Part shown: in pieces, positions 3,027 to 43,731 of the stretch
Layout of the letters: every line of letters starts with the position of its first letter
Position numbering within the stretch: position 1 is the stretch's first letter
DNA from: an uncultured Bdellovibrionales bacterium
Lineage (GTDB): Bacteria; Patescibacteriota; Minisyncoccia; Moranbacterales; UBA2206
DNA: 64,000 nucleotides
Assembly (NCBI GenBank): GCA_964636505.1
Contig: CAZWRY010000002.1
Coordinates: 17,248-81,247, forward strand
Reading direction: 5' to 3'
Notes under the pieces: generated by a model
What the model was told of the DNA's origin: nothing
The model's database searches: none
The model's input: only the letters and a program-made list of their open reading frames with translations
Program-made: the position numbers and the translations under genes

Positions 3027-3641
3027 TTATTGCATATAATCATTTATATTTCTTAGCTGGGCAAAAGACTCAAGATTGACATTATTGGGAGCTCTTACCG
3101 GGTCAATATTTATCATCAAATGAATTTTGATAAGTCTTACATCTATTACACTTACAGGTGTCGCCAGAGGATTATTTGCTGAATCGCCAGGATAATTTTT
3201 ATTAAAATAATAAAATACCGGATCGTCTATCGTATTAACGATGTTTTTTGCAATAACTCTGACACTTTCATCGTTTTCAGAATAAGTTGCCGGATTTCCG
3301 CTTGGATTGGCAATACCTTCCTTAAGTTCTTGATTTTCCAAAAAATAATGGACTTTTTCAATCACATTATCCCTGTCTATATCAAAAAAAACCACCAAAT
3401 CAAACTCGTCTCCGGACTTGATTGGAAATTCTCCGCTGTCAGACTGTTGAATTTTTCTGAGATTTCCGGTTATTTCATTCATCGCCCTGGAAACAATTAG
3501 GGTTGATTGTCCTTCTTCCATAATAAAAGACCTGGCTTGCCAGTTTTTCAAGAAAAGCAAAGTTACGCCTTCCATGCTTAAAACAAAAATAGCAATAGCA
3601 ACTAGCGTTTCTATAAGAGTTATGCCTTTTTTATTTTTCAC
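3027..3641 (-). CDS. Type IV pilin or pseudopilin with a prepilin-type N-terminal cleavage/methylation domain.
   Basis: 204 aa; MKNKKG|ITLIETLVAIAIFVL class III signal with Glu at +5. Confidence 0.7.
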   Translation of the reverse strand: MKNKKGITLIETLVAIAIFVLSMEGVTLLFLKNWQARSFIMEEGQSTLIVSRAMNEITGNLRKIQQSDSGEFPIKSGDEFDLVVFFDIDRDNVIEKVHYFLENQELKEGIANPSGNPATYSENDESVRVIAKNIVNTIDDPVFYYFNKNYPGDSANNPLATPVSVIDVRLIKIHLMINIDPVRAPNNVNLESFAQLRNINDYMQ

Positions 3642-6327: not shown

Positions 6328-8085
6328 TTACTCGGTTGTAACTCTAAGTATCTCCTCTATTGAAGTAAGGCCCATAGCCGCCTTAATAAATCCGTCTTCT
6401 ACCATGCTTAACATTCCGTCCTCCTGGCATTTTTTTTGCATTTCTTCTTCTGATGCCTTATGAGAAATCATTTTTTTCATTTCATCATTCACCTCCAAGA
6501 CTTCAAATATACCCAACCTACCCCTATAGCCTTCTTTATTGCACTGCTCGCATCCGGCCGAACGATAAAATTTTATACTTTTCCATTTATCCTTATCTCC
6601 GGAACTTTCTTTTATCTTCATAGCATCGCTATTTTTTATTATTTCAAATATCCTGTTCATATCATAATTTTTTTCCAGATTCTTAATATCGTCATTATCT
6701 AAAATGTATTCCTTGCGACAATTTGGGCAAAGTTTTCTGACTAATCGTTGGGCAATGATGGAATTTATAGTAGAAGCCAAAAGAAACGGTTCGGCTCCCA
6801 TATCAATGAGCCTGGGAACTGTTCCTATGGCGCTATTAGTGTGTAAAGTTGACAAAACAAGATGTCCGGTCATAGCAGAATGAATAGCCATTTCCATCGT
6901 TTCATTGTCTCTGATTTCACCGACCATTATCACATCCGGATCCTGACGCAAAAGCGAACGTAAACCGGCAGCAAAAGTCAGTCCGACCTTGGGATTAATT
7001 TGAGTCTGGTTGATCCTGACCATTCTATATTCAACCGGGTCTTCTACTGTGCTAATGTTTAGCTCTGGTGTATTTAAGATATCCATTATTGTGTATAAAG
7101 TAGTAGTTTTTCCTGATCCGGTCGGACCGGTCACTAAAATCATCCCGTTTGGTTTTTTGATATGGCGATGAACTGTTTCCAATCCCTTACCCGAAAACCC
7201 GACTTCTTCCAAAGTAAGCCCTTTGGAATTTTCATTCAAAAGACGCATTACGATTTTTTCTCCGTCAAAAATAGGCAAGATGCTTACACGAAAAGAAATT
7301 TTCAAGTCATCTTTTTCAATCTTGAACCTTCCGTCCTGCGGAACGCGATGCTCATCCAGTTTTAAATTAGAGAGAACTTTTATTCTGGCAATGATGCCTT
7401 GCATTACCTGCTTGGGCAAGGTCATCGCATCATGCAAAACTCCGTCAATACGATATCTTACTCTTACTTCTTTTTCGTCCGGTTCAATATGAATATCGCT
7501 GGCCTCTTGCAAAATAGCGTGTTTAATGAGCGTGTCTACTATCCTGATTATTGGTAAACCTTGGGCCACTTTTTCCAAGTCTTCTTCTTTACCTTCTTCC
7601 TTTTCGATGCCCTCTGAATCCTTGGTAATCATATCTCCAAATTCGGCCTTTAAGCTTTTTTCGTAATATTTTAGGACATTATCAATACTTTCCCCTGTCG
7701 TAAGACAAGCTACGACTTTCAATTCCGATTTTTTTTTAATGAAATCAATCGTTTGAATGTCTTCAGGGTTCAACATTGCCACTTTTAATTCTTTGCCTGT
7801 TTTGCTAAAAGCAATTATTTTGTATTTTTTGGCAATCGGTTCCGGAATCATTTGCAGGACTTCTTGAGGAATTATTTCCTTAGTTAAATCAACAAAAGGC
7901 ACGCCCAAAATATAGGCATAAAGTTTTCGTAAATTAATCTCGTCAATGAGACCCTCTTTAAGAAGAATTTCTCCTAATTTTATTTTTTCTTTTTCCGCTT
8001 TCTGATAGGCCTTTTCCAAATCCTCCGCTTTTATTATGTCGGAGTCGCTTATAAATTCCTTCAGTTGTTTGTTTTTTATTTGCAT
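6328..8085 (-). CDS. pilB: Type IV pilus assembly ATPase PilB (GspE family).
   Basis: 585 aa; N-terminal GspII domain, Walker A GPTGSGKTTTLY, C-terminal tetracysteine motif (CPNC...CEQC). Confidence 0.9.
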   Translation of the reverse strand: MQIKNKQLKEFISDSDIIKAEDLEKAYQKAEKEKIKLGEILLKEGLIDEINLRKLYAYILGVPFVDLTKEIIPQEVLQMIPEPIAKKYKIIAFSKTGKELKVAMLNPEDIQTIDFIKKKSELKVVACLTTGESIDNVLKYYEKSLKAEFGDMITKDSEGIEKEEGKEEDLEKVAQGLPIIRIVDTLIKHAILQEASDIHIEPDEKEVRVRYRIDGVLHDAMTLPKQVMQGIIARIKVLSNLKLDEHRVPQDGRFKIEKDDLKISFRVSILPIFDGEKIVMRLLNENSKGLTLEEVGFSGKGLETVHRHIKKPNGMILVTGPTGSGKTTTLYTIMDILNTPELNISTVEDPVEYRMVRINQTQINPKVGLTFAAGLRSLLRQDPDVIMVGEIRDNETMEMAIHSAMTGHLVLSTLHTNSAIGTVPRLIDMGAEPFLLASTINSIIAQRLVRKLCPNCRKEYILDNDDIKNLEKNYDMNRIFEIIKNSDAMKIKESSGDKDKWKSIKFYRSAGCEQCNKEGYRGRLGIFEVLEVNDEMKKMISHKASEEEMQKKCQEDGMLSMVEDGFIKAAMGLTSIEEILRVTTE

Positions 8086-32732: not shown

Positions 32733-33002
32733 TTATTCATCTTCTTCCGATAGGTCGAAATAGATTATCTTACTCAAATCGCCAGTGGCTATATCCTCTT
32801 CCCTCTTCTTACGCTTTCTCTCCTCAAGAATGTCGGTAAAGCGGTATTTTACCCATGATTGCCATCTATTATGACAGATGGGACAATCCTGATACGGTTC
32901 AATTACCTTTCCACAACGGCAACAACGCAGAACGCCACCCTTGCTGTTTTTACGTACTGTCTCTATACACTCCTGAACATCTGCTTCGCTGAGCTGTTTC
33001 AT
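32733..33002 (-). CDS. Small zinc-ribbon protein, hypothetical.
   Basis: 89 aa; CCRCGK...CPIC pattern. Confidence 0.4.
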   Translation of the reverse strand: MKQLSEADVQECIETVRKNSKGGVLRCCRCGKVIEPYQDCPICHNRWQSWVKYRFTDILEERKRKKREEDIATGDLSKIIYFDLSEEDE

Positions 33003-33259
33003 AGAATTTCTCCTTCTCGTTGAGATATTTTGACAATATGGTTAAATAAAACAAAAATAAAATCAAATTTTTTAATTTTATCGCCTCTCTCTTTCTACAT
33101 CTAAAGAACGACCTGCAATGGTAGCATGAATAGAGTGATTTGTCAAATAAAAAATAATTTTTGCCTAATTTAAGCCATTAAAATAGTATGAAATGGAATA
33201 ATTAGCGCAAGAAACACTTTTCTTAGGTACTCACACAACCTAAAACCACAAATTCCTTT

Positions 33260-34024
33260 CTACTCGATTATCATTTGCTCCCCAACAAAATATTTACCGT
33301 TCCAATCGTCAATAATTTTATTAAAACCTTGTTCCAAAAACAGTTTTTTTATTTCCTTATAAATCTTTTTTTGCGTTTCCAAATCTCCTGTTTCCAAGAT
33401 ATGCCTATAATCGGCGATAAATTCTTTTGGCTTCCATGGCAAAAAATTGAGTGGATAGTTTTCTAATTCCCATTCAAAATATTTATTGTATGGTTTTATT
33501 CTTTCTTCAAGGGCATAAAGAGCAGTCATCAACGGCGGTAATGATTCGACAGCATCTAAGTATGCAGCCAAATTATTGCCATCTCTATAATATTTGGCGG
33601 AACGATAAACTTGGTTAATATAGTTATCGAGAGCATCTTCTATTACTGTTTTTTGTACTTCTTTCGGCAATTTACCTTTCTCATCCATCATTTTTTGTAT
33701 ATTTCCGGTTTTATCAATGATAGCTTTGTTGTGGGCAAAATTATATCTTTCCCATTCTCTGTCACTGCCCCAATCAGCATATTTGGAAAACTGGCTCAAT
33801 GTGTGTACCCAGATTTCAAAATCGCTTGAGTTGTAACTTAAAATTTTTTCCTTCAGATTTTCAGAAGCATCATCTGACACAACAACATACACATCCATAT
33901 CAGAATCTTTGGTTATAAATTTTTCGCTTTTCCCCATTGAACCACCCAAAAAAAGTCCTAGCACATCAGGATCTTTTTTACACTCATTCAAAACTTCTGT
34001 ATATTTTTTTTGTTGATTATCCAT
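33260..34024 (-). CDS. Nucleotidyltransferase-domain protein with ANT(6)/aminoglycoside-NTase-like architecture; substrate unknown.
   Basis: 254 aa; GLFLGGSMGKSEKFITKDSDMDVYVV (GS...DxD) followed by a helical C-terminal domain. Confidence 0.5.
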   Translation of the reverse strand: MDNQQKKYTEVLNECKKDPDVLGLFLGGSMGKSEKFITKDSDMDVYVVVSDDASENLKEKILSYNSSDFEIWVHTLSQFSKYADWGSDREWERYNFAHNKAIIDKTGNIQKMMDEKGKLPKEVQKTVIEDALDNYINQVYRSAKYYRDGNNLAAYLDAVESLPPLMTALYALEERIKPYNKYFEWELENYPLNFLPWKPKEFIADYRHILETGDLETQKKIYKEIKKLFLEQGFNKIIDDWNGKYFVGEQMIIE

Positions 34025-34383
34025 AACTATTAAATATTTATATTAAACAATTTTTTAATCTATATCTTAAGCATATTTGATTATTATTAAAATGTAAACT
34101 AAAGTATAAAAAGAGTTAACCCTAAATGTTTTTATATATGAAAATTGGCATAATGCAAACTCAATCAGACATTATTTAAGCGATAGTTCTGAAAAATGCA
34201 TCCCCTTTGACTTCATAATAAAGTTGCCACCGCCCCAATACGAACGTGTAATAGTGGCTCGTGATACGCAAGGAAGAATTGTTCGGTCAATTCCAATTCA
34301 ATGAAATAAAAAAGGAGTATACTCATATTCCAGATTTAAGTCCGCAAATATAAACTACTCCTCTAGTGCTACTCACTATATTT

Positions 34384-34782
34384 TTATTCAGTCGTTTTCC
34401 CTTCAAATTCCGCTTCATTGGCTTCCGCTTCTTCCTTGGTAAGCCTGACAATCCCGTCTTTGTGATGAGCAGGAGAATAAATGGTGTAAAGTTTCAATTC
34501 TTCAGTTTCAGAAACGTTAATGACATTATGCTGAGCACCAGATGGAACAATTATAGCTGTGCCATCCTTGACATCATATTCATTGCTATCGATTATCACT
34601 TTTCCATCTCCCTGTTCGAATCTGAAAAACTGGTCGTTTTCTTCGTGAACCTCCATTCCAATTTCCTCTTTTGGTTTTAGGCTCATAAGAACCAACTGGC
34701 TGTGCTTGCCAGTATAGAGCACTTTGCGAAAATTTCCGTTTTCCAAAGTGTCTTTTTCGATTTCTCCAAAAAATCCTTTCAT
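34384..34782 (-). CDS. Cupin-domain protein.
   Basis: 132 aa; cupin motifs G(x)5HxH-like (MEVHEEND...) and IIVPSGAQHNVIN. Confidence 0.55.
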   Translation of the reverse strand: MKGFFGEIEKDTLENGNFRKVLYTGKHSQLVLMSLKPKEEIGMEVHEENDQFFRFEQGDGKVIIDSNEYDVKDGTAIIVPSGAQHNVINVSETEELKLYTIYSPAHHKDGIVRLTKEEAEANEAEFEGKTTE

Positions 34783-34815
34783 ATTGTTTTTGTTAATGAT
34801 TAAATTCCTATTGTA

Positions 34816-35550
34816 TTATTGAGCTGTCCAACCTCCATCCACATAAAGAATTGAACCTGTGACATATTTTGATTCATCGGAAGCTAAATATACGGCTGCA
34901 TAAGCGATATCATTCGGTTCTCCCATATGTCCTAGTGGCGTAGCGGAACAAATACCTTTATTAGCATCTTCATTATCTTGCATCCCTTTGGTCATTTGCG
35001 TCTTGATAAATCCTGGAGCAATAGCATTCACTCTGATTCCGTCAGATGCTAATTCTAAAGCAGAAGTGCGAGTTAGCTGGTTTACTCCGCCTTTAGAAGC
35101 ACAATAGGCTCCAGCGGTTTTAAATCCGACTTGTCCCAAAATGGAAGTAGTATTGATGATGGAACCTTTAATACCTTTTTCTTTCATATAGCTACTAGCT
35201 TCCCTGATTCCATAAAAAACCCCGCTTAAATTGATAGCAATTACTTTATCCCATATCTCATCAGACATAGTGGCTATTTCTCCCACAAGTCCCACGCCAG
35301 CATTGTTTACTATAATGTCTAATTGCCCAAATTTTTCTACAGCACTATCTATCAAATTTTTCACTTCTTCTTTTTTTGAAGTATCCGCTTTGACAAAAAT
35401 TGCATTTTCTCCTAAATCGTTTTCATTTGAATATGGATTAACATCCGAGAAAACCACTTTTGCTCCTTCTTTGAGATACATTTCGGCAATTGCCTTGCCG
35501 AGTCCCGATGAAGCTCCTGTTACGATTGCCACTTTGTTTTCCAGTCGCAT
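34816..35550 (-). CDS. SDR-family NAD(P)-dependent oxidoreductase (glucose-1-dehydrogenase / 3-oxoacyl-ACP-reductase-like).
   Basis: 244 aa; TGASSGLGKA Rossmann motif, NNAG, catalytic YCASK. Confidence 0.85.
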   Translation of the reverse strand: MRLENKVAIVTGASSGLGKAIAEMYLKEGAKVVFSDVNPYSNENDLGENAIFVKADTSKKEEVKNLIDSAVEKFGQLDIIVNNAGVGLVGEIATMSDEIWDKVIAINLSGVFYGIREASSYMKEKGIKGSIINTTSILGQVGFKTAGAYCASKGGVNQLTRTSALELASDGIRVNAIAPGFIKTQMTKGMQDNEDANKGICSATPLGHMGEPNDIAYAAVYLASDESKYVTGSILYVDGGWTAQ

Positions 35551-35599
35551 AGTTTTTGTTTTTATTTGAATTTTTGATTAAAAATACAAATAAAAAAAT

Positions 35600-36112
35600 T
35601 TAATTATTATTCATTGCTAAATCAAGTTTTTTATAAAATTTTGAATGAATTATAATCGGCAATAAAAATCGATATGTGAAAAATGATACTATGAAAGCAA
35701 TAATAATACTGCCTGCGATATCAATCGAATGATGGATTCCTGCCATCACTCTGGCTATGCCAACTAATATAGAGAGCCCGAAAAGCAATATCCCAGCTTT
35801 TCGATTAAAGCAAAAAATAACAGCGGCTATCGCACTGCCAAGTAACATATGATTTGAAGGAAATCCATTGTTTGCTTCGTGAAAAATAAGAGGGAGTGAA
35901 TTATCCAATACAAATGGACGTGGATTATAGTAAAAAATAGCCGATATTTTCGCTATCAAATAAATAAGAGGGAAAGAAACAAGACCGAAGATTGTTATTT
36001 GTTTTTGATGGTTTCTCGATTGTTTCAGAAAATAAAACAAGACAATAATCACTATTAAAATAAGTAAATATTCTGCATTAAAAATTATCAGATTATTTAA
36101 CAGATTTTTCAT
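35600..36112 (-). CDS. PAP2-family membrane phosphatase.
   Basis: 170 aa; PSNH and ARVMAGIHHSIDIAGS motifs (PSGH / SRx5Hx3D). Confidence 0.65.
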   Translation of the reverse strand: MKNLLNNLIIFNAEYLLILIVIIVLFYFLKQSRNHQKQITIFGLVSFPLIYLIAKISAIFYYNPRPFVLDNSLPLIFHEANNGFPSNHMLLGSAIAAVIFCFNRKAGILLFGLSILVGIARVMAGIHHSIDIAGSIIIAFIVSFFTYRFLLPIIIHSKFYKKLDLAMNNN

Positions 36113-36123
36113 ATGTTTTTATT

Positions 36124-36399
36124 TTATTCTTCAATTCTTAACGCTTTTCCTTTAACAATCGCTTCGGCGATTTTAATTCTGGCAGAAGACAAAATCCGCT
36201 GAAAAGTGCTTTGAGAAGTGTTCATTTTTTTTGAAGCCTCAATTTGCTCCAGCCCGTCAAAATCCTTAAGTTTTACCGCTTCCATTTCTTCTTTAGTTAG
36301 AATAACCTCGTCCAATTCATACATCGGTATTCCCTGGGGTTTGAAATAATGAGCCTTGGGTTTGAAGCGTAATCGCTTGCATAGTTTTGGTCTTGTCAT
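36124..36399 (-). CDS. DUF134 / UPF0251 predicted DNA-binding protein.
   Basis: 91 aa; typical family length and C-terminal HTH-like QSTFQRILSSARIKIAEAIV. Confidence 0.65.
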   Translation of the reverse strand: MTRPKLCKRLRFKPKAHYFKPQGIPMYELDEVILTKEEMEAVKLKDFDGLEQIEASKKMNTSQSTFQRILSSARIKIAEAIVKGKALRIEE

Positions 36400-36400
36400 A

Positions 36401-37453
36401 TTATTTTCTTTCTAAATTAACATTACACTCGGGACATTTTAGACTTGAGCAAGGCACTCCTCTTTCGTGTGGCACGCTATAACCGCATTTCGGACATACA
36501 CATTGTCCATCCGGTCCCTTTCCAACCGCCTCTTCTATTTTTTCCTTAAATCTTCCTCTTCTTTGCCAGCCAAAACTTCTACCGAAGCTAGGTTTGTAGA
36601 AACTGCTTTCAATTTCGTGGCTGGATATTTGAATGACCACATATTGCAGACTCTCGATTCCGTTTATAAGTTTATCCCTTAAGTTATTGGAAATTTTCGT
36701 TGCTTCTTCTACTTTTAAATCGCTGGGAAGATTGATTTCTAAATTAGCTGTAATAGTCGAGCCCTTCTTTTGGGTTTTCAATGAAATAAGTTCAATGTTC
36801 TCATTTTTAGCGATTTCTTTTATTATATTTTCTGTTTCTTCTCCGGCAGAAACATCTAACAATGAACCTGCCGCATCTTTTCCCACAATAAACGCTTCCT
36901 TTATTATATATACCCCCATCAGCATCGCCAAAACAGAATCGGCATAAATCCAATAAGGCGTTAGAAATAATCCGCCTAATATGGCAAGGGAGGTGTAAAC
37001 ATCAATTCTGGAATGGACTCCGTCTGAAAGCAGACTAATTGAGTTTTCTTTTTTGCCGTAGTAAGTTTTGAGCCTTGCCATTGCTTCGTTCACAATGCTG
37101 GAAAAAATCATTATTCCAAAAGCCAAATATCCAACTTCGACTTCTTGCGGAGAAAATATATTTTTGAAAGCATTATAAATAATTCCGATGCCAGTTGCCA
37201 AAATAATTATTGTAATAATAACTCCGCCCAAAACTTCAAACTTGTAATGTCCGTAGGGATGTTCTTTGTCGGCTGGTTTTTTTGCTATTTTTATCCCAAT
37301 ATAGCTTATGATTGAAGAAAAAATATCCACTAAAGAATCAATACCTGCCGTCAAAATAGCCGATGAATTGGAAAAAAATCCAACGGCAATTTTACCTCCA
37401 GCCAAAGTCGCATTTGCGATTATTGATAATATAGCAATTTTTTCTTTCATCAA
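36401..37453 (-). CDS. Cation diffusion facilitator (CDF) metal-efflux transporter fused to a C-terminal Cys4 zinc ribbon.
   Basis: 350 aa; six TM helices, HPYGHYKFE motif, cytoplasmic domain, tail CVCPKCG...CPEC. Confidence 0.8.
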   Translation of the reverse strand: MMKEKIAILSIIANATLAGGKIAVGFFSNSSAILTAGIDSLVDIFSSIISYIGIKIAKKPADKEHPYGHYKFEVLGGVIITIIILATGIGIIYNAFKNIFSPQEVEVGYLAFGIMIFSSIVNEAMARLKTYYGKKENSISLLSDGVHSRIDVYTSLAILGGLFLTPYWIYADSVLAMLMGVYIIKEAFIVGKDAAGSLLDVSAGEETENIIKEIAKNENIELISLKTQKKGSTITANLEINLPSDLKVEEATKISNNLRDKLINGIESLQYVVIQISSHEIESSFYKPSFGRSFGWQRRGRFKEKIEEAVGKGPDGQCVCPKCGYSVPHERGVPCSSLKCPECNVNLERK

Positions 37454-37468
37454 TTTATATTACACTTT

Positions 37469-38674
37469 TTATCCAAACATCAGCCACTGTGGTTTGAATA
37501 TCAAAAGTATTCCGATAATAAGCATAATCATTCCACCAATTAGTTGCGAGTATTTTGAATACTTGGTAGAAATTCCTGTCATTTCCAGAGTAATCATCGC
37601 TACAAAGAAAATAAACAAATCATCCAGCATAAAGAAAAAAATGTATAGCAAAATGTAAAGATAGTATTGTAATTTGGAAAGTTCGTTGAGTGCCAAGACT
37701 TGAGTGTATACCGCAGGAAGTCCCGCTGAACAAATGAGTTCCACTAAATTTACCAAAAAAGCCAATGCGATAATTCCTCCCAGTGCTAGCCAAAAACTAT
37801 TTTTACCGACTGTCGCTTTCAATTTTTGGAAAACTTTCTGTCGACTTTCGTCATTAGCGACTTTGCATCCGCTTTCTTTGTTGAATAAAAATTCTTTCAA
37901 ACTGTATCCTCCGCCAAATAACGCTAAAATTCCAATCAATATCCGCACCCAAATCACAAAGCCGAGAAATAAAATAAGATTAAGCCAGGCAGACATAAAC
38001 AAAAAATAGACGGAAGCGGAGGCGATAATAAAAGCTGTTCCCAAAATCCACATCCTTTTTCGGTCTTTCATCCCCAAAAGCAGACTAATAAGAAATAGGA
38101 GGGTCCACATCGCACAAGGGTTGAAACCGTCCAGAAAACCCATAATTATCGTGAGAATCGGCAGAGAAAATTTGTAAGCGTCAATTTTTCCAATAAGCGG
38201 AAGATTGATAATTTTCTCTTTTTCATTATTTTCAGATTCGGTGTTTTGTTTTGAATCTTTTTTATTTTCATCTTTAGAATTCATTATACTCGCTATCTTG
38301 TCAGGACAGCCACTATTGTTGCATTTTTCTATCTGGCTTTTGATTTCTTCCGAAGTTATGCTTTCAGCATATCCGACAAAATTTTTGTCACTGATAACCG
38401 AAAACGGAACGCCTGAAACATCTACATTCAATGATTTACCAATTTTTTGCAAAAGCAATGCGTTTTCCTTGTTGTGATATATTTCAAAACTCCTTATTTC
38501 CAAATTCGGATAAACTTTTTGCATTTCCTGCAAGAATTGCATCTCCTTGGCACAATGCGGGCAGCCATCACCGTAAAAGAAATATGCCTTTATTGATTCT
38601 GAAGCGTTAACCGAAATTACTGGTAGAGTCAGAAATGAAATTGAAAAAAATAATAGTAAAAAAAACTTCTTCAT
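37469..38674 (-). CDS. Thioredoxin-domain protein fused to a CcdA/DsbD-type thiol-disulfide transmembrane transporter.
   Basis: 401 aa; signal peptide, GCPHC thioredoxin motif, then multi-TM region with FNPCAMW (DsbD_2-like). Confidence 0.7.
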   Translation of the reverse strand: MKKFFLLLFFSISFLTLPVISVNASESIKAYFFYGDGCPHCAKEMQFLQEMQKVYPNLEIRSFEIYHNKENALLLQKIGKSLNVDVSGVPFSVISDKNFVGYAESITSEEIKSQIEKCNNSGCPDKIASIMNSKDENKKDSKQNTESENNEKEKIINLPLIGKIDAYKFSLPILTIIMGFLDGFNPCAMWTLLFLISLLLGMKDRKRMWILGTAFIIASASVYFLFMSAWLNLILFLGFVIWVRILIGILALFGGGYSLKEFLFNKESGCKVANDESRQKVFQKLKATVGKNSFWLALGGIIALAFLVNLVELICSAGLPAVYTQVLALNELSKLQYYLYILLYIFFFMLDDLFIFFVAMITLEMTGISTKYSKYSQLIGGMIMLIIGILLIFKPQWLMFG

Positions 38675-38677
38675 ACG

Positions 38678-38947
38678 CTATTTGTTTTGGTTTTGATTGA
38701 TAATTTCAACCAGCTTGTCCTTATCAATTTCTCCGTTTAAACGCAAAAATTCTTTTTCTTCTTTGTCTAAAAAAACAAAAGTGGGAAGCGTTTTGTCAAT
38801 TTTATGTTTCTTCACCATTTCTTTGTCATTGTCAAAATCATAATACTCGGTTTTAAGCCAGGGATTTTCCTCTTCAATTTTTTTCCATCTGGGCTTCATA
38901 ACTAGACACCCAGAGCACCAAACAGCCCCGAATTTTAATACTTTCAT
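38678..38947 (-). CDS. Small thioredoxin-like protein.
   Basis: 89 aa; WCSGC CxxC motif. Confidence 0.6.
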   Translation of the reverse strand: MKVLKFGAVWCSGCLVMKPRWKKIEEENPWLKTEYYDFDNDKEMVKKHKIDKTLPTFVFLDKEEKEFLRLNGEIDKDKLVEIINQNQNK

Positions 38948-39831
38948 AAATTTTGTTTTAAATTATTGTTCATTTCTATATTGCTAATTATTTCCTGAAA
39001 CAAACTTTTGTATTCTGGGTTCATCTCTAAAATCGGCTTCATCTCAATAGTTGCATCAACAAAATCTTTTCGGTATGGAATTTTGCCTAATATCGGAATA
39101 TCACTCTCTTTGGCAAATTTTTCTATTTCCAAACAAAAATTATTTGCTAAATCGTATTTATTGATAACAATTCCGTGCTTGATTTGGAAATGACGAGCCA
39201 GATACAAAACTCTTTTTAAATCGTGTAGAGCTGAGGGCGTTGGTTCGGTTACGGCCACAATATAATCAGTGCCGACCAACGAAGCTATAACCGGGCAACC
39301 GACTCCAGCTGAAGAATCTATAAGAAGCATTTCAATTTTTAATTGCTGGCTAATTTTGTCCGCATACTTTCTGACTTCCGCTACAATCTCTCCTGAAGCC
39401 AGTTCTCCCAGTTTAAGCTCGCCCGAAACAATATTTACTTGATAATTTTTTCCTGTGTATATTTCTCCGATTTCCTTTTTATCTTCCGAGATAGCTCCTG
39501 TTGGACAAGCTACTTTGCAAGCCTTGCATCCGATGCAAATATCTTGCACGAAAGCGGGATATTTATCTTTGACAAAAACAATGGCGTTTTGCTTGCAAAC
39601 TTCGGCACATTTTCCGCATTTCTTGCATTTAGAAAAATTCCACTTGGGAATGGCCTGATAAACAGTTTCAGATTTTTTTCTTTGAACAGAAAGCAAAAGA
39701 TGGTCATTGGGACATTCCACATCGGCATCAACTAAAAGTGTTTTATATTTTCTGGCAAATTCAATCGCCAAGGAAGTGGCAACCATCGATTTTCCCGTTC
39801 CGCCTTTCCCCCCAGTAACCGCTATCTTCAT
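38944..39831 (-). CDS. MinD/Mrp-like P-loop ATPase with an inserted 2x[4Fe-4S] ferredoxin domain.
   Basis: 295 aa; GGKGGTGKS deviant Walker A; two CxxCxxCxxxCP motifs (CKKCGKCAEVC, CIGCKACKVACP). Confidence 0.8.
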   Translation of the reverse strand: MKIAVTGGKGGTGKSMVATSLAIEFARKYKTLLVDADVECPNDHLLLSVQRKKSETVYQAIPKWNFSKCKKCGKCAEVCKQNAIVFVKDKYPAFVQDICIGCKACKVACPTGAISEDKKEIGEIYTGKNYQVNIVSGELKLGELASGEIVAEVRKYADKISQQLKIEMLLIDSSAGVGCPVIASLVGTDYIVAVTEPTPSALHDLKRVLYLARHFQIKHGIVINKYDLANNFCLEIEKFAKESDIPILGKIPYRKDFVDATIEMKPILEMNPEYKSLFQEIISNIEMNNNLKQNL

Positions 39832-40187
39832 AGTTTATGCTCTTCGCAAACATCTTCCAAAGATGCTTTCTGAAGTTTATTATTTTTCCACATCTCAAAA
39901 ATTTCTTTTACTGTTTCCGCTGATTGAACATATACTTCAATATTAAACTCTCGGCATAAATTCAAAGCCCGTGGACCCAATCCTCTGCAAAGCAAGACAT
40001 TCGCACTATGTTTTTTCATAAGTTCTGGCGGAAGCCCAATTCCTCCCATATGTTCGCTGGTATTATCTATTATTTCAAGAACTTGCCCATTTTCATCAAG
40101 AAACGTATAAGTATTGCACCTGCCGAAATGTTCGGCTATTTTGTCGTCTAAACCTTTTTTACCGTCTGTTGGAATGACAATTTTCAT
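39828..40187 (-). CDS. NifX/NifB-C-terminal-like dinitrogenase FeMo-cofactor-binding-domain protein.
   Basis: 119 aa; MKIVIPTDGK...FGRC...; small alpha/beta fold of this family. Confidence 0.7.
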   Translation of the reverse strand: MKIVIPTDGKKGLDDKIAEHFGRCNTYTFLDENGQVLEIIDNTSEHMGGIGLPPELMKKHSANVLLCRGLGPRALNLCREFNIEVYVQSAETVKEIFEMWKNNKLQKASLEDVCEEHKL

Positions 40188-40194
40188 ATTGGTT

Positions 40195-40527
40195 TTAATT
40201 GCTTAATTTTTTATCAATAAATTTCTGGATAACATCTTTTACTGCTCCATCCCCATTATATACTTCAATATTGAATTGCTTCAAAACATCCATTGCTCTG
40301 GGCCCTATGGTTCTGGCGATTACAACATTAACATTATTTTCTGCTAAAAGCTTGGCAGCCGACATTCCTGCCCCGCTAGCTTGATTTTCGTTATCGTTCT
40401 TTATGGCATCCGCTTTTGTTATCTTGCCGTTTTCAATATCTGCAATGACAAAATATGGGCATCTGCCAAATAACTCGGCAACACTATCGGACAATTCTTT
40501 GCCTTCCGAACTAATAGCTATTTTCAT
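40195..40527 (-). CDS. NifX/NifB-C-terminal-like FeMo-cofactor-binding-domain protein (second copy).
   Basis: 110 aa; MKIAISSEGK...FGRCPYFVI family signature. Confidence 0.7.
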   Translation of the reverse strand: MKIAISSEGKELSDSVAELFGRCPYFVIADIENGKITKADAIKNDNENQASGAGMSAAKLLAENNVNVVIARTIGPRAMDVLKQFNIEVYNGDGAVKDVIQKFIDKKLSN

Positions 40528-40547
40528 AACATTGAAATCTTAAAAAA

Positions 40548-40820
40548 TTATTTTTGATTTTTAATCTCTTCCAAACGGGATTTGACCGCTTTTAATTCTT
40601 CTTCCAGAACTTCCGCTTCTTTAGCAAGAATTTCAGCTTCTTCTTTTTTGTCTACGATTGGAGCAGGATAGTATCCCCAAAATCTTCTCCAGCCCAATCC
40701 GCGACCACCGCCTCGTCTTCGTCCATAATCCATACCGCCACCACAAGGACCCATTCCTCTTCCTGACATCGGTCCCATTCCCATCGGGCCTGTTCCATTT
40801 TGTCTTGGCATATTTATCAC
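40548..40820 (-). CDS. DUF5320-family small protein (Gly/Met-rich N-terminus plus coiled coil).
   Basis: 90 aa; MPRQNGTGPMGMGPMSGRGMGPCGGG typical of DUF5320, which is found next to NifX-like and MinD-Fd genes in anaerobes. Confidence 0.6.
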   Translation of the reverse strand: MINMPRQNGTGPMGMGPMSGRGMGPCGGGMDYGRRRGGGRGLGWRRFWGYYPAPIVDKKEEAEILAKEAEVLEEELKAVKSRLEEIKNQK

Positions 40821-40929
40821 CTCACTTTCTATTTTAGTTTTTTAGTTGAGTATATACTATGAATATATACCCATAATATATTACTGTCAAACACGCAGAC
40901 TATTTCAAAATTTTTTATCCGGGCATCCC

Positions 40930-40958
40930 TTGATTTTTTCAGCTTTTTAGCGTAAAAT
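40930..40958 (+). promoter_or_regulatory. Sigma-70-like promoter candidate (TTGATT-17-TAAAAT) for the 757-aa gene.
   Basis: -35 at 40930..40935, -10 at 40953..40958, ATG at 40983. Confidence 0.4.
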
Positions 40959-40982
40959 AAGGAAAATTATAATTACAATTAT

Positions 40983-43256
40983 ATGCCTCTTGATTTCGAT
41001 ATACCCGCCTCAAAAGCTAGAAAATTCGGTCTGATTGAAGAACTTCCAAAAATAAAGGATACAGAGAGGGTTTTAATTGAGGTTAATTCAATAAAAGAGA
41101 CAGCTAGTTCCGTTGACATTGATTGCAGGGTTTCGGTCAGAGGGAAACAAAGTGAGAATAAGATAAAATATTCAATAAACGATATTACGCCAGAAAAAGC
41201 CACCTTCGCAGGATGGGCTTTTATTTTGTCTTATACAGAACGAGGTGGATTCTATTCTGGCGAAAAAATTTCCGAGAAAGAAGAAAAATCTCTAAAGGAT
41301 AGTGCTAAAGCATTTCTCGAAATAGCAACAAAAGAGGATTCTTCAAAATCAAAAAAAATATCTTGTTTGCCTTATTATTTAATAGCAAAACATCACTTAT
41401 ATGATTATAAGGATAGGGCGAAAACAAACCTTCATAAATCGTTAGACTGTCCCGATGTATTTCCAGATGCATACGATGCTTTAATAAATCTAGAAAGCTA
41501 TTCCGTAAAGAAATTGCTTATTGCCCAAGAAGGATTAAAAAAATTCCCAAGTGAAGAAAAACTTATAACTGAAATAGTAGATTACTATGTTGAACATAAC
41601 GAAAATAAAAAAGCAACCGATTTAATTCTAAGCAAAAAAGAAGTCATTCCACCGGACAAATGGATAAATTATAAAAGTCTAAGATTGTTGCTGGTTTTTT
41701 GCTTAATCAAACTTAAAAAATTCGATGAAGCAAGAAAAGAAACAAAAATACCAATATGCGAAACTGACTTTGAAGAAGATGCAAATCTTTTTCTAAAAGG
41801 ATTCATTGAATATGAAGCTGGTGATTATCAAAAGGCAACCGACTTTTTTCTTGATACAATAAAAATTTCCACTTATAACTCTAGCGAAGTAAGAGCAAGT
41901 TATTATTTCCTATTGGGATGCTATTATAATCTGGGACAGACAAGCCAACTGGAAGAACTAGCCAAGGAATTTGAATTAGCCAGTGATTACTTTTACGTAG
42001 AAGCTCTTAGGGGGTTTCACTATGTGGAGAATGTTAGAAAAATTCTCAAAGATATAATCAAATCTGAAGTTGATGAACTCGTAAAAGCTAAACTTTCTGG
42101 ATTATTGGCTTTCTCTTATTTTCAGGAAATTGAAACTAATCAGCAAAGCATTAAAAACAGAGCTTTCTGGGGCGGAGATTTAACAAAAAAGGAGAAGGAG
42201 AGAATAAAGAAAAACCTTTCACTTTTAGAGGATACCTTGAGATACTATCCGCGTGTTTCATTTTTTAATGCCTTGTATGCAAATTTATGTAATTATATTG
42301 GATATTATGATAAAGCTGTTAAATTTGACTTGAAGGCAATTGACGGCAAGGAAAATGAAAATATGGATGCATACAGCTATACGGAACTTACTGAATGTTC
42401 TAAGGAATTTATTGATAATTATGCAGAAATAATCAAGGAAAATGTTAGAGATATTGATAAATATATCGAAGAAAGACTTAGTTCAGACATAAACTCTTTA
42501 TACGAAATAAAAAAATACAATGTAATATCAGAGATATATTTCTATCTTAAAAATCAGAACAAGCTTGATACAATATGGGGAGCAGAAACTGAAAGCTTTA
42601 ATGGCTTCCTATTCCGTCTTGCATATAGCCTGAATGAAAAGGGACATATAAAAGACGCTTCGGTGGCATACAAAAAACATATTGAATTTTACGATGAAGA
42701 TTCGAGTGTTCTGAATAACTTGGCACTAATAAGAGAAAAAGAAGGCAAACTGGAAGAAGCAAAAAGCTTAATAACCAAGGCTAAAAATATTTCTGAAGAA
42801 AATGATGAGGTGGTTGATAGAAATTATGCCCGATTGACTTCGAGTTCAAAAAAAATACAATCAACTTCAGAAATTATTGAAAAAGCAGAAGAAATAAAAT
42901 CAACATTCACACCCCAAGCATTGATTGAAAAAGGCATAGGATATTTCCAATTTCGCAAACAGCGACCAAAAATAAAAATTGGCCAATCTGATAGTCGGCA
43001 TTTCAGATTGTTGCAATTTTTATCCAGTCCTCTTGGCTCTTCCAGAACCATCGACAGCGTTTTTGACGCCATTAAATTGCCGAAAGATAAAAATGACCAG
43101 ATGCTGAACGGCTATAACACCTATCAATCAATCGGCAGAAAAATAGACCTAATAGAGTATGCTAAGAAAGAACTTCAAAAAAATAAGGAGCTTCAGGGCA
43201 GACTCAAGTTTGAATTAGACCGCAATCAAAAAACATATAGGCTTCGGCTTGTTTAG
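40983..43256 (+). CDS. Large TPR-like / alpha-helical repeat protein of unknown function.
   Basis: 757 aa; several TPR-like helix pairs (for example AYKKHIEFYDEDSSVLNNLALIREKEGKLEEAKSLI); no catalytic motif recognised; starts the putative integrative island. Confidence 0.6.
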   Translation: MPLDFDIPASKARKFGLIEELPKIKDTERVLIEVNSIKETASSVDIDCRVSVRGKQSENKIKYSINDITPEKATFAGWAFILSYTERGGFYSGEKISEKEEKSLKDSAKAFLEIATKEDSSKSKKISCLPYYLIAKHHLYDYKDRAKTNLHKSLDCPDVFPDAYDALINLESYSVKKLLIAQEGLKKFPSEEKLITEIVDYYVEHNENKKATDLILSKKEVIPPDKWINYKSLRLLLVFCLIKLKKFDEARKETKIPICETDFEEDANLFLKGFIEYEAGDYQKATDFFLDTIKISTYNSSEVRASYYFLLGCYYNLGQTSQLEELAKEFELASDYFYVEALRGFHYVENVRKILKDIIKSEVDELVKAKLSGLLAFSYFQEIETNQQSIKNRAFWGGDLTKKEKERIKKNLSLLEDTLRYYPRVSFFNALYANLCNYIGYYDKAVKFDLKAIDGKENENMDAYSYTELTECSKEFIDNYAEIIKENVRDIDKYIEERLSSDINSLYEIKKYNVISEIYFYLKNQNKLDTIWGAETESFNGFLFRLAYSLNEKGHIKDASVAYKKHIEFYDEDSSVLNNLALIREKEGKLEEAKSLITKAKNISEENDEVVDRNYARLTSSSKKIQSTSEIIEKAEEIKSTFTPQALIEKGIGYFQFRKQRPKIKIGQSDSRHFRLLQFLSSPLGSSRTIDSVFDAIKLPKDKNDQMLNGYNTYQSIGRKIDLIEYAKKELQKNKELQGRLKFELDRNQKTYRLRLV

Positions 43257-43437: not shown

Positions 43438-43731
43438 ATGCCCAGAAAATTATCCAAAAGTAACTCGGAGAAATTGGGTCGGATTTCATCCGATAACTAT
43501 CAAGATTTTTTAACTACTTATGACTTAGGCTGTTCAGCCGCACTGGTGAGCAGTGGCTTTGAGCTTGTCTCGCTGGATAAATCCAATCCGAAAAAAGTCC
43601 AGTTTATTTTCAAAAGAGAAATCGGCATTGAAAAAGTTGTTGACCAATACTGGGCAGACCGTCTGGATGTGAAGGCTAGGACGTTTTTCGACAACGTGAA
43701 AATGCTCAAAAATCGCATCTGGAGCGAATAA
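43438..43731 (+). CDS. DUF5659-like small protein.
   Basis: 97 aa; core TTYDLGCSAALVSSGFELVSLDKSNPKKVQFIFKRE resembles the DUF5659 family recalled from memory. Confidence 0.45.
   Translation: MPRKLSKSNSEKLGRISSDNYQDFLTTYDLGCSAALVSSGFELVSLDKSNPKKVQFIFKREIGIEKVVDQYWADRLDVKARTFFDNVKMLKNRIWSE

What the first reader, a model, noticed from the sequence alone, without database searches (positions are those of the whole stretch)
35600..40820. Nine-gene anaerobe-type metal/FeS-handling operon (DUF5320 - 2x NifX-like - MinD-ferredoxin ATPase - Trx - Trx-CcdA - CDF - DUF134 - PAP2)
Genes are overlapping or tightly spaced on one strand. The DUF134 regulator + NifX-like + MinD-like ATPase with 2x[4Fe-4S] + DUF5320 module is, from recalled literature, a widespread association in anaerobic archaea and bacteria that remains functionally uncharacterised. 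Here it is physically fused into one operon with a zinc-ribbon-tailed CDF metal exporter, two thioredoxins and a CcdA/DsbD thiol-disulfide transporter. That pairing argues for a redox-coupled metal or Fe-S cofactor trafficking system in an organism without nitrogenase.
Basis: partly seen in the sequence, partly recalled or inferred. Interest (0 to 1): 0.6.

Follow-up and report, generated by a model that had tools for sequence, protein, structure and literature searches.

The report
Conserved metal/thiol-redox operon in Patescibacteria
This is a real operon of 9 to 11 genes from a candidate-phyla-radiation bacterium that joins homologues of the Desulfovibrio "orange protein" metal-cluster complex to a metal exporter and a thioredoxin-driven membrane relay. 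The same cassette recurs in many relatives behind one conserved 16-base operator, which makes two unstudied protein families (DUF134, DUF5320) directly testable as its regulators.

Summary
One label is weak: the "CcdA" membrane domain matches no Pfam model and resembles CcdA only at profile-profile level (58%, both catalytic Cys aligned). The organism is a Patescibacterium (CPR). The NifX-like plus MinD-ferredoxin module is the counterpart of the Desulfovibrio ORP complex, which has been studied, so it is not uncharacterised.

The link to the CDF and Trx genes is not unique to this contig:
- Among 47 MinD-Fd loci with downstream sequence, 34 have the CDF next and 10 have the Trx-membrane protein.
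- Two relatives carry CDF-NifX fusion proteins.
- Others have a Trx-ferredoxin:thioredoxin-reductase fusion in the same slot.

New here:
- A 16-bp palindromic operator (ATGRRTATATAYTCAT, window 40859-40874) overlaps the -10 of a TTGACA-N17-TATATT promoter.
- In 80 species-level loci it occurs only where DUF134 and DUF5320 are present (27/0/3/50 for DUF134).

Best reading: a DUF134/DUF5320-autoregulated iron/zinc-sulfur and thiol-redox homeostasis operon. Composition, recurrence and the operator are shown. The biochemical function is inferred. The unit probably extends downstream to an SDR and a cupin gene (to 34384).

The parts
40862..40890 (-). Sigma-70-type promoter, TTGACA-17 nt-TATATT
   Evidence: It is the best promoter match in 33000-41200, with 11 of 12 positions. 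The same -35 element and spacing are seen upstream of DUF5320 in relatives.
40859..40874 (-). 16-bp near-palindromic candidate operator ATGGGTATATATTCAT (family consensus ATGRRTATATAYTCAT), overlapping the -10
   Evidence: It is the only copy in the 64-kb window. In relatives, about 30 of 36 sites (1.30 Mb) and 36 of 48 sites (0.63 Mb) lie at most 150 nt upstream of a DUF5320 gene. In the 80 species-level loci it occurs only where DUF134 is present: 27/0/3/50, Fisher p=2.6e-18.
40548..40811 (-). DUF5320 protein (87 aa from ATG 40811): Gly/Met/Pro-rich N-terminus with one conserved Cys, and a C-terminal part that by inspection looks like a coiled coil. First gene of the operon.
   Evidence: Pfam PF17253, 2.3e-23. 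Cys26 is conserved in 97% of 30 relatives. Start site.
40195..40527 (-). NifX-like / orange-protein-like protein 1 (Nitro_FeMo-Co, 110 aa)
   Evidence: Pfam 5.6e-22. PDB hits: MTH1175 8.8e-21 and Desulfovibrio ORP 2WFB 3e-9.
39828..40187 (-). NifX-like protein 2 (119 aa), with an HFGRC motif and a C-terminal C-E-x-H motif
   Evidence: Pfam 2.2e-14. Conservation.
38944..39831 (-). MinD/ParA-type P-loop ATPase with an inserted 2x[4Fe-4S] ferredoxin domain (Orp3/Orp4-like architecture)
   Evidence: Pfam CbiA, ParA and Fer4 x2. It is 75-94% identical across more than 120 Patescibacteria clusters. Start and stop codons overlap the neighbouring genes by 4 nt.
38678..38947 (-). Small cytoplasmic thioredoxin (89 aa, WCSGC)
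   Evidence: Pfam 4.2e-10. The two active-site Cys (WC.GC) are 100% conserved in 39 sequences. It is found within 6 kb of the membrane protein in 38 of 86 loci, mostly as the next gene upstream.
37469..38674 (-). Signal peptide, then an extracytoplasmic Trx/Grx-fold domain (CPHC), then a 6-TM domain with invariant Cys187 (TM1), Cys270 (cytoplasmic loop) and Cys315 (TM4). It is a CPR-wide family without a Pfam model and probably a very divergent CcdA/DsbD relative.
   Evidence: hhalign against a CcdA profile gives 58% probability over 198 columns with both Cys aligned.
36401..37453 (-). CDF metal exporter (FieF/MamB-like, DD-HD type site A) with a conserved cytoplasmic Cys6-His tail
   Evidence: TIGR01297 211 bits; FieF, MntE and MamM are the best sub-models, all below their cut-offs. 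Alignment and tail. The tail is replaced by a NifX domain in L043 and L067.
36124..36399 (-). DUF134 helix-turn-helix protein (sigma-70 region-4-like), the candidate autoregulator
   Evidence: Pfam PF02001 2.3e-19, with weak Sigma70_r4_2. It co-occurs with the operator. No PDB relative.
35600..36112 (-). PAP2 phosphatase (undecaprenyl-diphosphatase-like). A lineage-specific passenger.
   Evidence: Pfam 2.5e-13; NCBIfam hits are below cut-off. It was detected in only 1 of the 86 TrxMem-anchored loci (L001-L086).
34816..35550 (-). Short-chain dehydrogenase, a probable downstream member of the transcription unit
   Evidence: Pfam adh_short_C2 1.8e-70. The same family sits inside cassettes in L001, L002, L017, L026, L050 and L090.
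34384..34782 (-). Cupin_2 protein, a possible last gene of the unit (33 nt after the SDR, followed by a 359-nt gap)
   Evidence: Recurrence was not examined.

Best explanation
This is one sigma-70-driven transcription unit of a Patescibacterium (about 34384/35600 to 40890, minus strand). It merges two cassettes that recur across the phylum behind the same operator:
(A) DUF5320 > NifX-like > NifX-like > MinD-ferredoxin ATPase > CDF > DUF134.
(B) DUF5320 > DUF134 > Trx > Trx-fused membrane protein.

Proposed working, with each step marked:
1. DUF134, the only helix-turn-helix protein that always travels with the element, binds the 16-bp palindrome over the -10 and autoregulates the operon. DUF5320, with its single conserved Cys and a C-terminal part that looks like a coiled coil, is its sensory partner. 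This is inferred from co-occurrence.
2. The two orange-protein/NifX-like proteins and the MinD-type ATPase with two [4Fe-4S] clusters form an ORP-like cytoplasmic complex that binds and passes on labile iron-sulfur (or other metal-sulfide) clusters. This rests on homology to Orp3/4/5/8 and MrpORP, for which Fe-S binding and transfer were shown in Desulfovibrio.
3. The FieF/MamB-type CDF, whose cytoplasmic tail is Cys-rich here and is a NifX domain in some relatives, takes the metal (most likely Fe2+ or Zn2+) from that complex and exports it. This is inferred from adjacency, overlapping genes and the domain fusion.
4. The small cytoplasmic thioredoxin passes electrons through the Cys187/Cys315 pair of the CcdA-like membrane domain to its own extracytoplasmic CPHC domain, which keeps surface thiols or exported metal reduced. 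This is inferred from architecture and remote homology.

Overall it is a metal-sulfur and thiol-redox homeostasis system for a low-potential, sulfidic lifestyle.
For: Gene content and tight spacing.

Recurrence:
- The same order is found in L001 and L092/L093; L009 differs only by a peroxiredoxin inserted between NifX and MinD-Fd.
- Among 80 MinD-Fd-anchored metagenome loci, NifX lies upstream in 46 of 48, the CDF downstream in 34 of 47, DUF134 is present in 38 of 47, and the Trx-membrane protein lies downstream in 10 of 47.
- Among 86 TrxMem-anchored loci, Trx is found in 38, DUF134 in 33 and DUF5320 in 32.
- Cassette A also occurs on long contigs.

Fusions and slot-sharing:
- CDF-NifX fusions occur in L043 and L067.
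- A Trx-ferredoxin:thioredoxin-reductase fusion occupies the same slot between MinD-Fd and the CDF in L097-L099 and L122, and lies upstream of MinD-Fd in L089.

Operator:
- Single copy in the window.
- Specific position upstream of DUF5320.
- Strict co-occurrence with DUF134 and DUF5320.
- It coincides with the best promoter match.

ORP homology: PDB 2WFB 3e-9, MrpORP Di-Nase domain match, literature.

CcdA-like relay:
- Signal peptide plus CPHC domain.
- Six helices, with breaks at the two Cys motifs.
- hhalign 58% with both Cys aligned.
- Invariant Cys residues.

Other cassette members are thiol-redox or metal proteins: Prx, Pyr_redox, ZIP, ABC-3, P1B-ATPase, TauE, YibE/F.
Against: - No experiment or expression data bear on any step.
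- The metal and the direction of flux are guesses. The CDF scores equally well with FieF, MntE and MamM sub-models and reaches none of their cut-offs.
- The ORP complex itself has no established function; cell division was proposed (PMC6345978).
- The membrane domain misses every DsbD Pfam model. Its AlphaFold models are of low confidence (pLDDT 58-69). It carries invariant Asp, Asn and Glu residues in its helices that would also suit a metal transporter.
- DUF134 has no conserved Cys in this phylum, so how a signal would reach it is unknown.
- Co-occurrence cannot separate DUF134 from DUF5320 as the DNA binder.
- CPR genomes have long co-directional gene strings, so some members (PAP2, cupin) may be bystanders.
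Confidence: 0.5

Rival explanations
1. It is a peroxide, disulfide or redox-potential stress regulon. DUF134/DUF5320 sense oxidation. The operon then supplies reductant to the envelope (Trx, TrxMem), removes Fenton-active iron (CDF), and protects or repairs Fe-S clusters (NifX-like proteins and MinD-Fd). This would parallel PerR- or OxyR-type responses; that analogy is from my own knowledge.
For: - Peroxiredoxin, a 168-171-aa protein with a faint Pfam CMD (AhpD-type) hit in L089, a pyridine-nucleotide disulfide oxidoreductase and Trx-FTR fusions are recurrent optional members.
- In Desulfovibrio the orp operons respond strictly to redox potential through OrpR.
- The single conserved Cys in DUF5320 could act as a redox switch.
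Against: - In Desulfovibrio the orp genes are ON at low potential and OFF on oxidation. That is the opposite of a stress-induced regulon.
- Metal importers (ZIP, ABC-3) are also members.
- There is no direct evidence about the signal.
- This reading overlaps with the best explanation and is not exclusive of it.
Confidence: 0.25
2. It is a cell-envelope or cell-division module. The MinD-like ATPase and ORP-like proteins act in division, as first proposed for the Desulfovibrio ORP complex. PAP2 recycles undecaprenyl phosphate, and the Trx-membrane protein maintains envelope protein thiols. The CDF would be incidental.
For: - The ORP complex was described as 'putatively involved in cell division', and MrpORP localises to a cell pole (PMC6345978).
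- The ATPase belongs to the MinD/ParA superfamily.
- PAP2 resembles undecaprenyl-diphosphatases, below cut-off.
Against: - PAP2 was detected in only 1 of the 86 TrxMem-anchored loci (L001-L086).
- The CDF is the most constant neighbour of the ATPase (34 of 47) and is fused to NifX domains in two relatives.
- No division genes occur in the cassettes.
- The ATPase carries a ferredoxin insert that MinD proper lacks.
Confidence: 0.1
3. It is a chance mosaic. The genes are unrelated and sit together only because CPR genomes are compact and co-directional, so they share no function or regulation.
For: - The window has long same-strand gene runs.
- PAP2 and the cupin are not recurrent.
- The order of modules varies between relatives.
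Against: - The same families recur together in dozens of independent species-level loci.
- Start and stop codons overlap.
- There are domain fusions.
- One conserved operator sits in front of both cassette types.
Confidence: 0.05

Closest known systems
[quoted passage not shown]
   Same: - It combines single-domain Nitro_FeMo-Co proteins with a MinD-type P-loop ATPase carrying two [4Fe-4S] ferredoxin motifs, encoded side by side.
- NifX-like protein 1 matches the D. gigas ORP structure 2WFB at 3e-9.
- Both are found in anaerobes.
   Different: - There is one ATPase here instead of two paralogues.
- There is no Mrp/NBP35-NifX fusion (MrpORP).
- There is no sigma-54/OrpR control. A sigma-70 promoter carries a palindromic operator, with DUF134 and DUF5320 genes in place of OrpR.
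- A CDF exporter and a Trx relay are built into the same operon.
CcdA / DsbD / ScsB transmembrane thiol-reductant conduits with periplasmic Trx-fold partners (for example ScsB-ScsC, CcdA-ResA; Thermus CcdA structure 5VKV)
   Same: - It has six TM helices with one essential-looking Cys in TM1 and one in TM4, each next to Pro.
- A dedicated cytoplasmic Trx gene lies upstream.
- It has an extracytoplasmic Trx-fold domain with a CxxC motif.
- hhalign aligns both Cys over 198 columns.
- The N-terminal domain resembles ScsC/DsbA-type proteins.
   Different: - There is no match to Pfam DsbD_TM or DsbD_2.
- It has a third invariant Cys in a cytoplasmic loop, and invariant Asp/Asn/Glu residues in the helices.
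- The client domain is fused at the N-terminus.
- The family is essentially confined to Patescibacteria-like genomes.
Fe/Zn cation diffusion facilitators FieF (YiiP) and magnetosome MamB/MamM
   Same: It shares the CDF fold, the ZT_dimer cytoplasmic domain, and a DD-HD-type transport site by alignment.
   Different: - It has an extra conserved Cys6-His C-terminal tail, or a NifX domain in relatives.
- It is below the equivalog cut-off for every named subfamily.
- It is embedded in an ORP-like operon.
IssA (Pyrococcus thioferrate storage protein) and MrpORP Di-Nase domain: other Nitro_FeMo-Co proteins that hold Fe-S species (as described in PMC6345978)
   Same: They share the domain family and are small cytoplasmic proteins in anaerobes. 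NifX-like protein 2 has HFGRC and C-terminal C-E-x-H motifs reminiscent of the CxHFGHC...CDH ligands described for MrpORP.
   Different: It has no cationic IssA tail and no fused Mrp domain. Cluster binding was not tested here.

Membership tests
ORP complex gene cluster (Desulfovibrio type) | Single-domain Nitro_FeMo-Co (orange-protein-like) proteins | tested here: met
   There are two genes, with Pfam 5.6e-22 and 2.2e-14, and PDB ORP 2WFB at 3e-9.
ORP complex gene cluster (Desulfovibrio type) | MinD-like ATPase carrying two [4Fe-4S] ferredoxin motifs (Orp3/Orp4) | tested here: met
   CbiA/ParA P-loop plus two Fer4 motifs. There is only one copy, and it was not aligned directly to Orp3/Orp4.
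ORP complex gene cluster (Desulfovibrio type) | MrpORP (Mrp/NBP35 fused to a Di-Nase domain) | tested here: not met
   The NF041136 hits are partial: 51.5, 36.5 and 63.3 bits against a cut-off of 450. No such fusion was seen in the operon or in the cassettes inspected in relatives; the rest of the window was not searched with an Mrp model.
ORP complex gene cluster (Desulfovibrio type) | Sigma-54 promoter with the OrpR enhancer-binding protein | tested here: not met
   The promoter is sigma-70-type, TTGACA-17-TATATT, with a palindromic operator. The only regulator-like gene in the operon is DUF134.
ORP complex gene cluster (Desulfovibrio type) | Physical complex of the encoded proteins | not testable with these tools
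   This needs co-purification.
CcdA/DsbD superfamily | Match to the family's sequence models (Pfam PF02683, PF13386) | tested here: not met
   The membrane domain has no hit at E<=10. None of 83 diverse members hits these models. No PDB CcdA hit.
CcdA/DsbD superfamily | Profile-profile homology to CcdA with the two catalytic Cys in register | tested here: inconclusive
   hhalign probability rises from 1.6% to 9.3% to 58% as the profiles become more diverse. The last alignment spans 198 columns with GFNPC aligned to FISPC and CSAG aligned to TPCxGP.
CcdA/DsbD superfamily | Six-TM topology with Cys in TM1 and TM4, plus a cytoplasmic Trx donor and an outward-facing Trx-fold acceptor | tested here: met
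   Helix pattern of the model, at low confidence. Invariant C187 and C315. Adjacent Trx gene. Fused CPHC domain behind a signal peptide.
Cation diffusion facilitator (TIGR01297) | Score above the curated superfamily cut-off | tested here: met
   211.6 bits against a cut-off of 82.35.
FieF / MntE / MamM / MamB equivalogs | Score above the equivalog cut-off | tested here: not met
   Scores of 121-138 bits against cut-offs of 350-500. Substrate therefore cannot be assigned by membership.
DUF134 (PF02001) and DUF5320 (PF17253) | Score above the Pfam gathering threshold | tested here: met
   70.2 bits against 27, and 83.7 bits against 27.

The most novel reading that the evidence does not exclude
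DUF134 and DUF5320 form a previously unrecognised, phylum-wide transcription switch that reads iron-sulfur, sulfide or redox status. The cassette it controls is a dedicated route that hands preformed metal-sulfur species from orange-protein-like carriers to a CDF for delivery across the membrane. A new CcdA-like thiol relay supplies reductant on the outside. This would amount to an export or surface-maturation pathway for metal-sulfur cofactors in ultra-small episymbiotic bacteria.
Probability: 0.12. Interest if true: 0.85.

Novelty: new variant of a known kind. Interest (0 to 1): 0.62.

Why it matters
- The role of the orange-protein (ORP) complex has been open since it was described in 2011. 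Here its homologues are wired to a metal exporter, sometimes by gene fusion, and to thioredoxin systems. That points experiments toward metal-sulfur handling rather than cell division.
- DUF134 and DUF5320 are widespread families without a function. A 16-bp operator that tracks them across a phylum gives a direct gel-shift and reporter test.
- The Trx-fused membrane protein is a large family (over 2,000 clusters at 50% identity), strongly conserved, with no Pfam model. It belongs to organisms whose envelope redox biology is essentially unknown.

Tried and rejected
- Exact-sequence look-ups of the window's MinD-Fd protein and of the 354-aa NCBI version of the membrane protein found nothing on record.
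- A second model of the membrane domain alone had pLDDT 58 and pTM 0.38. I judged it too poor to search with.
- A regex search for canonical CcdA motifs in 1.9 Mb of related loci found no gene, so no in-phylum CcdA was available for comparison.
- Fievet et al. 2011 (PMC3133258) is not held. Statements about the conserved synteny of orp genes in other anaerobes, and about what DVU2107 is, therefore could not be checked.
- Rfam found nothing at the leader hairpin of relatives. RNAalifold on a MAFFT alignment of it failed because the loop lengths vary, so I used a stem search anchored on the loop motif, with shuffles as control.
- The CDF tail was scanned against Pfam at E<=10 and gave only insignificant zinc-ribbon and HypA hits, and no DUF5320 hit.
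- Literature searches for DUF134, DUF5320, COG1342 and UPF0251, and for CPR combined with NifX, CDF or DsbD, found nothing relevant.

Full report
**Observation**

One search shows nine minus-strand ORFs between 35600 and 40820. Successive genes are 1 to 20 nt apart or overlap by 4 nt. Pfam and NCBIfam confirm these assignments:
- DUF5320.
- Two Nitro_FeMo-Co (NifX-like) proteins.
- A MinD/CbiA P-loop ATPase with two 4Fe-4S ferredoxin motifs.
- An 89-aa thioredoxin.
- A 401-aa protein with a weak thioredoxin-like N-terminus.
- A CDF transporter (TIGR01297, 211 bits against a cut-off of 82).
- DUF134.
- PAP2.

The sequence upstream shows that DUF5320 more plausibly starts at the ATG at 40811, behind a GAGGTGA ribosome-binding site. 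The region's best sigma-70 promoter match, TTGACA-17-TATATT, lies at 40890-40862.

Downstream, an SDR (34816-35550) and a cupin (34384-34782) follow on the same strand after 49 and 33 nt. Only chance-level terminator matches occur in between. The unit is therefore probably 11 genes long.

**Organism**

The named homologues of the 401-aa protein and of the ATPase are almost all from Parcubacteria/Patescibacteria MAGs. GC content is 35-40%. The window comes from a CPR bacterium.

**Known counterpart**

NifX-like protein 1 matches MTH1175 (8.8e-21) and the Desulfovibrio gigas orange protein 2WFB (3e-9). It also matches the Di-Nase domain of the MrpORP model.

The literature describes the D. vulgaris ORP complex as follows (PMC6345978):
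- Orp3 and Orp4 each carry two [4Fe-4S] ferredoxin motifs; they are MinD-like ATPases by my recollection of Fievet et al. 2011, which is not held.
- Orp5 and Orp8 are Nitro_FeMo-Co proteins.
- MrpORP transfers Fe-S clusters to them.

The orp operons are transcribed only at low redox potential, through the Fe-S sensor OrpR (PMC8359166). Its cellular role is still unresolved. The window lacks MrpORP, a second ATPase paralogue and sigma-54/OrpR control.

**Is the association with CDF and Trx genes recurrent?**

Yes. I fetched two sets of loci and annotated their ORFs with HMMs built from the window proteins:
- 80 species-level loci around homologues of the 401-aa protein.
- 80 metagenome loci around homologues of the ATPase.

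Around the ATPase the canonical order is DUF5320 > NifX > NifX > MinD-Fd > CDF > DUF134. The counts are:

| Feature | Loci with it / loci with enough sequence on that side |
|---|---|
| NifX upstream | 46 / 48 |
| DUF5320 upstream | 34 / 48 |
| CDF within the next three genes | 34 / 47 |
| DUF134 present | 38 / 47 |
| Trx-membrane protein downstream | 10 / 47 |

Long-contig examples are L087-L089.

Around the 401-aa protein the recurrent core is DUF5320 > DUF134 > Trx > TrxMem. Of 86 loci, Trx occurs in 38, DUF134 in 33 and DUF5320 in 32. Optional inserts of ZIP, CDF, YibE/F, peroxiredoxin, SDR, peptide deformylase or the NifX/MinD-Fd block are seen in L001, L009, L026 and L043.

L092 and L093 have the window's order and L001 has it with two extra genes; L009 adds a peroxiredoxin gene. 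The window operon is therefore the union of two cassettes that share their first gene and their regulator gene.

Three further observations tie the parts together:
- In L043 and L067 the CDF carries a C-terminal NifX domain where the window's CDF has its conserved Cys6-His tail.
- In L097-L099 and L122 a thioredoxin-ferredoxin:thioredoxin-reductase fusion occupies the slot between MinD-Fd and the CDF that Trx and TrxMem occupy in the window; in L089 the same fusion lies upstream of MinD-Fd.
- The remaining variable members are metal transporters (ZIP, ABC-3, P1B-ATPase) or thiol/peroxide enzymes (Prx, a CMD-like protein, Pyr_redox), plus TauE.

PAP2 was detected in only one other locus and is a passenger.

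**A conserved operator**

Aligning the regions upstream of DUF5320 genes revealed TTGACA, about 11 nt, then TT-ATGGGTATATA(T/C)TCAT-A. In several lineages the element is the perfect palindrome ATGAATATATATTCAT. Findings for the pattern ATGRRTATATAYTCAT:
- It occurs once in the 64-kb window, at 40859-40874, overlapping the -10.
- In 1.30 Mb of TrxMem-anchored loci there are 36 sites at up to 2 mismatches, and about 30 lie 10-110 nt upstream of DUF5320.
- In 0.63 Mb of ATPase-anchored loci there are 48 sites, 36 of them upstream of DUF5320. Of 43 DUF5320 genes with enough upstream sequence, 35 have a site.
- In the 80 species-level loci the motif (up to 1 mismatch) occurs only where DUF134 is present: 27 with both, 0 with motif only, 3 with DUF134 only, 50 with neither (Fisher p = 2.6e-18). 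The pattern for DUF5320 is similar.
- In L038 a second copy heads a sub-operon that begins with peptide deformylase and DUF134.

Sixteen conserved, palindromic bases across such divergent genomes are far more than a promoter needs. This is a transcription-factor site. DUF134, with its sigma-70 region-4-like helix-turn-helix, is the obvious binder. DUF5320 is always first in the operon and has one 97%-conserved Cys and a C-terminal part that by inspection looks like a coiled coil. It is a candidate sensory partner. DUF134 itself has no conserved Cys here. These assignments are inferences.

**The 401-aa protein**

It has a signal peptide. It has a Trx/Grx/DsbA-like domain with an invariant CPHC motif. 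Its 245-residue membrane domain matches no Pfam family even at E=10 and no PDB sequence.

The family is large and strongly conserved. There were more than 7,600 hits in the word-indexed search and 2,126 representatives of 50%-identity clusters. Across 83 diverse members the following hold:
- Invariant: D182, N185, P186, C187, W190, C270, N309, C315 and P320.
- Nearly invariant: C38, C41, E312, S316, D351 and D352.

The AlphaFold model (pLDDT 69 overall, about 65 in the membrane part) shows six helices with breaks at the C187 and C315 motifs.

Profile comparison with CcdA gave these results:

| Query | Target | hhalign probability |
|---|---|---|
| Shallow profile of the family (A3) | Thermus CcdA sequence (5VKV) | 1.6% |
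| Diverse profile (A4) | Thermus CcdA sequence (5VKV) | 9.3% |
| Diverse profile (A4) | 22-sequence CcdA profile (A6) | 58% |

The last alignment covers 198 columns. It puts GFNPC on FISPC and the CSAG motif on TPCxGP.

I conclude that this is probably a very divergent CcdA/DsbD-superfamily protein fused to its extracytoplasmic client, with a dedicated cytoplasmic Trx encoded next to it. Membership is unproven. The third invariant Cys and the invariant acidic residues set it apart and leave room for a metal-transport role.

**The CDF**

The best sub-models are FieF, MntE and MamM, all far below their equivalog cut-offs. By alignment the TM2 and TM5 residues are D, D / H, D. From my knowledge of the family, this is the FieF/MamB type. 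Fe2+ or Zn2+ export is the most likely activity but is not established.

**Mechanism**

See the best explanation. Shown here:
- The composition of the operon.
- The tight coupling of its genes.
- Phylum-wide recurrence of the associations.
- The domain fusions.
- The conserved operator tied to DUF134 and DUF5320.

Inferred:
- Who binds the operator.
- That the ORP-like proteins handle Fe-S or metal-sulfide species.
- That the CDF receives metal from them.
- That Trx reduces the membrane protein's Cys pair and thence its CPHC domain.

The rivals are a redox-stress regulon, an envelope/division module and a chance mosaic. They are weighed in their own entries. The first overlaps with the preferred reading. 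The last is contradicted for the core genes.

**Novelty**

Each building block belongs to a known kind: an ORP cluster, a CDF, and a Trx/CcdA-type relay. The following appear to be undescribed in the literature I could search:
- The combination of these blocks.
- The CDF-NifX fusions.
- The Pfam-less Trx-membrane family.
- The DUF134/DUF5320 operator.

I rate the finding as a new variant of a known kind, with interest 0.62.

Noticed in passing
Relatives only: for example L031 about 3335-3365, L015 about 3920-3950, L028 about 7178-7210, L095, L118, L137, L164. Absent from the window leader (40812-40858).: Many related operons have a 5'-leader hairpin between the operator and the DUF5320 start codon. 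The stem sequence varies between lineages (GGATATA/TATATCC, AGGTAAT/ATTACCT, GGAGAGAG/CTCTCT...), but the 3' side of the loop is always AAAGGTCG. Of 19 leaders, 14 have a perfect stem of at least 6 bp flanking the motif, against a mean of 2.5 (maximum 6) in shuffles. No Rfam family matches. It may be an undescribed cis-regulatory RNA or a protein-binding hairpin.
   Followed up: partly
L043 7216-8466 (+); L067 2916-4160 (-): These CDF transporters carry a C-terminal Nitro_FeMo-Co (NifX-like) domain in place of the Cys-rich tail seen in the window's CDF.
   Followed up: partly
L097 6492-7091, L098, L099, L122; L089 5026-5631: A thioredoxin fused to the catalytic chain of ferredoxin:thioredoxin reductase (Pfam Thioredoxin + FeThRed_B). 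In L097-L099 and L122 it lies between MinD-Fd and the CDF, the slot that Trx and TrxMem occupy in the window; in L089 it lies upstream of MinD-Fd, next to a Glu_synthase-like FMN protein and a small ferredoxin. This hints that the ATPase's ferredoxin domain may feed electrons to thioredoxin.
   Followed up: partly
L030, L058, L061 (exact order); variants lacking one member or interrupted in L039, L040, L054, L086: The Trx-membrane protein has a second recurrent context without DUF134 or DUF5320: ArsR-type regulator > small Thioredoxin_3-like protein > ArsP-like permease > (Trx) > TrxMem. These labels are mine, assigned by inspection of the sequences. The conserved operator is absent there.
   Followed up: no
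L008, L017, L019, L072 (next to TrxMem): A repeated triad lies beside the Trx-membrane gene: a Gly/Met/Gln-rich secreted protein, an ECF-type sigma factor, and a small membrane protein that may be an anti-sigma factor.
   Followed up: no
L038 7996 and 13543; also L008, L152, L153: Peptide deformylase, a metalloenzyme, sits inside some cassettes. In L038 it is preceded by its own copy of the operator, so the operator can head an operon that starts without DUF5320.
   Followed up: no
window 37469-38674 (-): One public record (P0007, 354 aa, 100% identical over 88%) evidently annotates this gene from an internal start. That start would remove the signal peptide and probably the CPHC active site (not aligned residue by residue). 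The 401-aa form is the one conserved in homologues.
   Followed up: partly
window 40983-43256 (+) and 43438-43731 (+): A 757-aa protein with only weak TPR hits is transcribed divergently from the operon promoter region, followed by a DUF5659 protein. Its start lies 93 nt from the operon's -35 element, so the two may share the intergenic control region.
   Followed up: no
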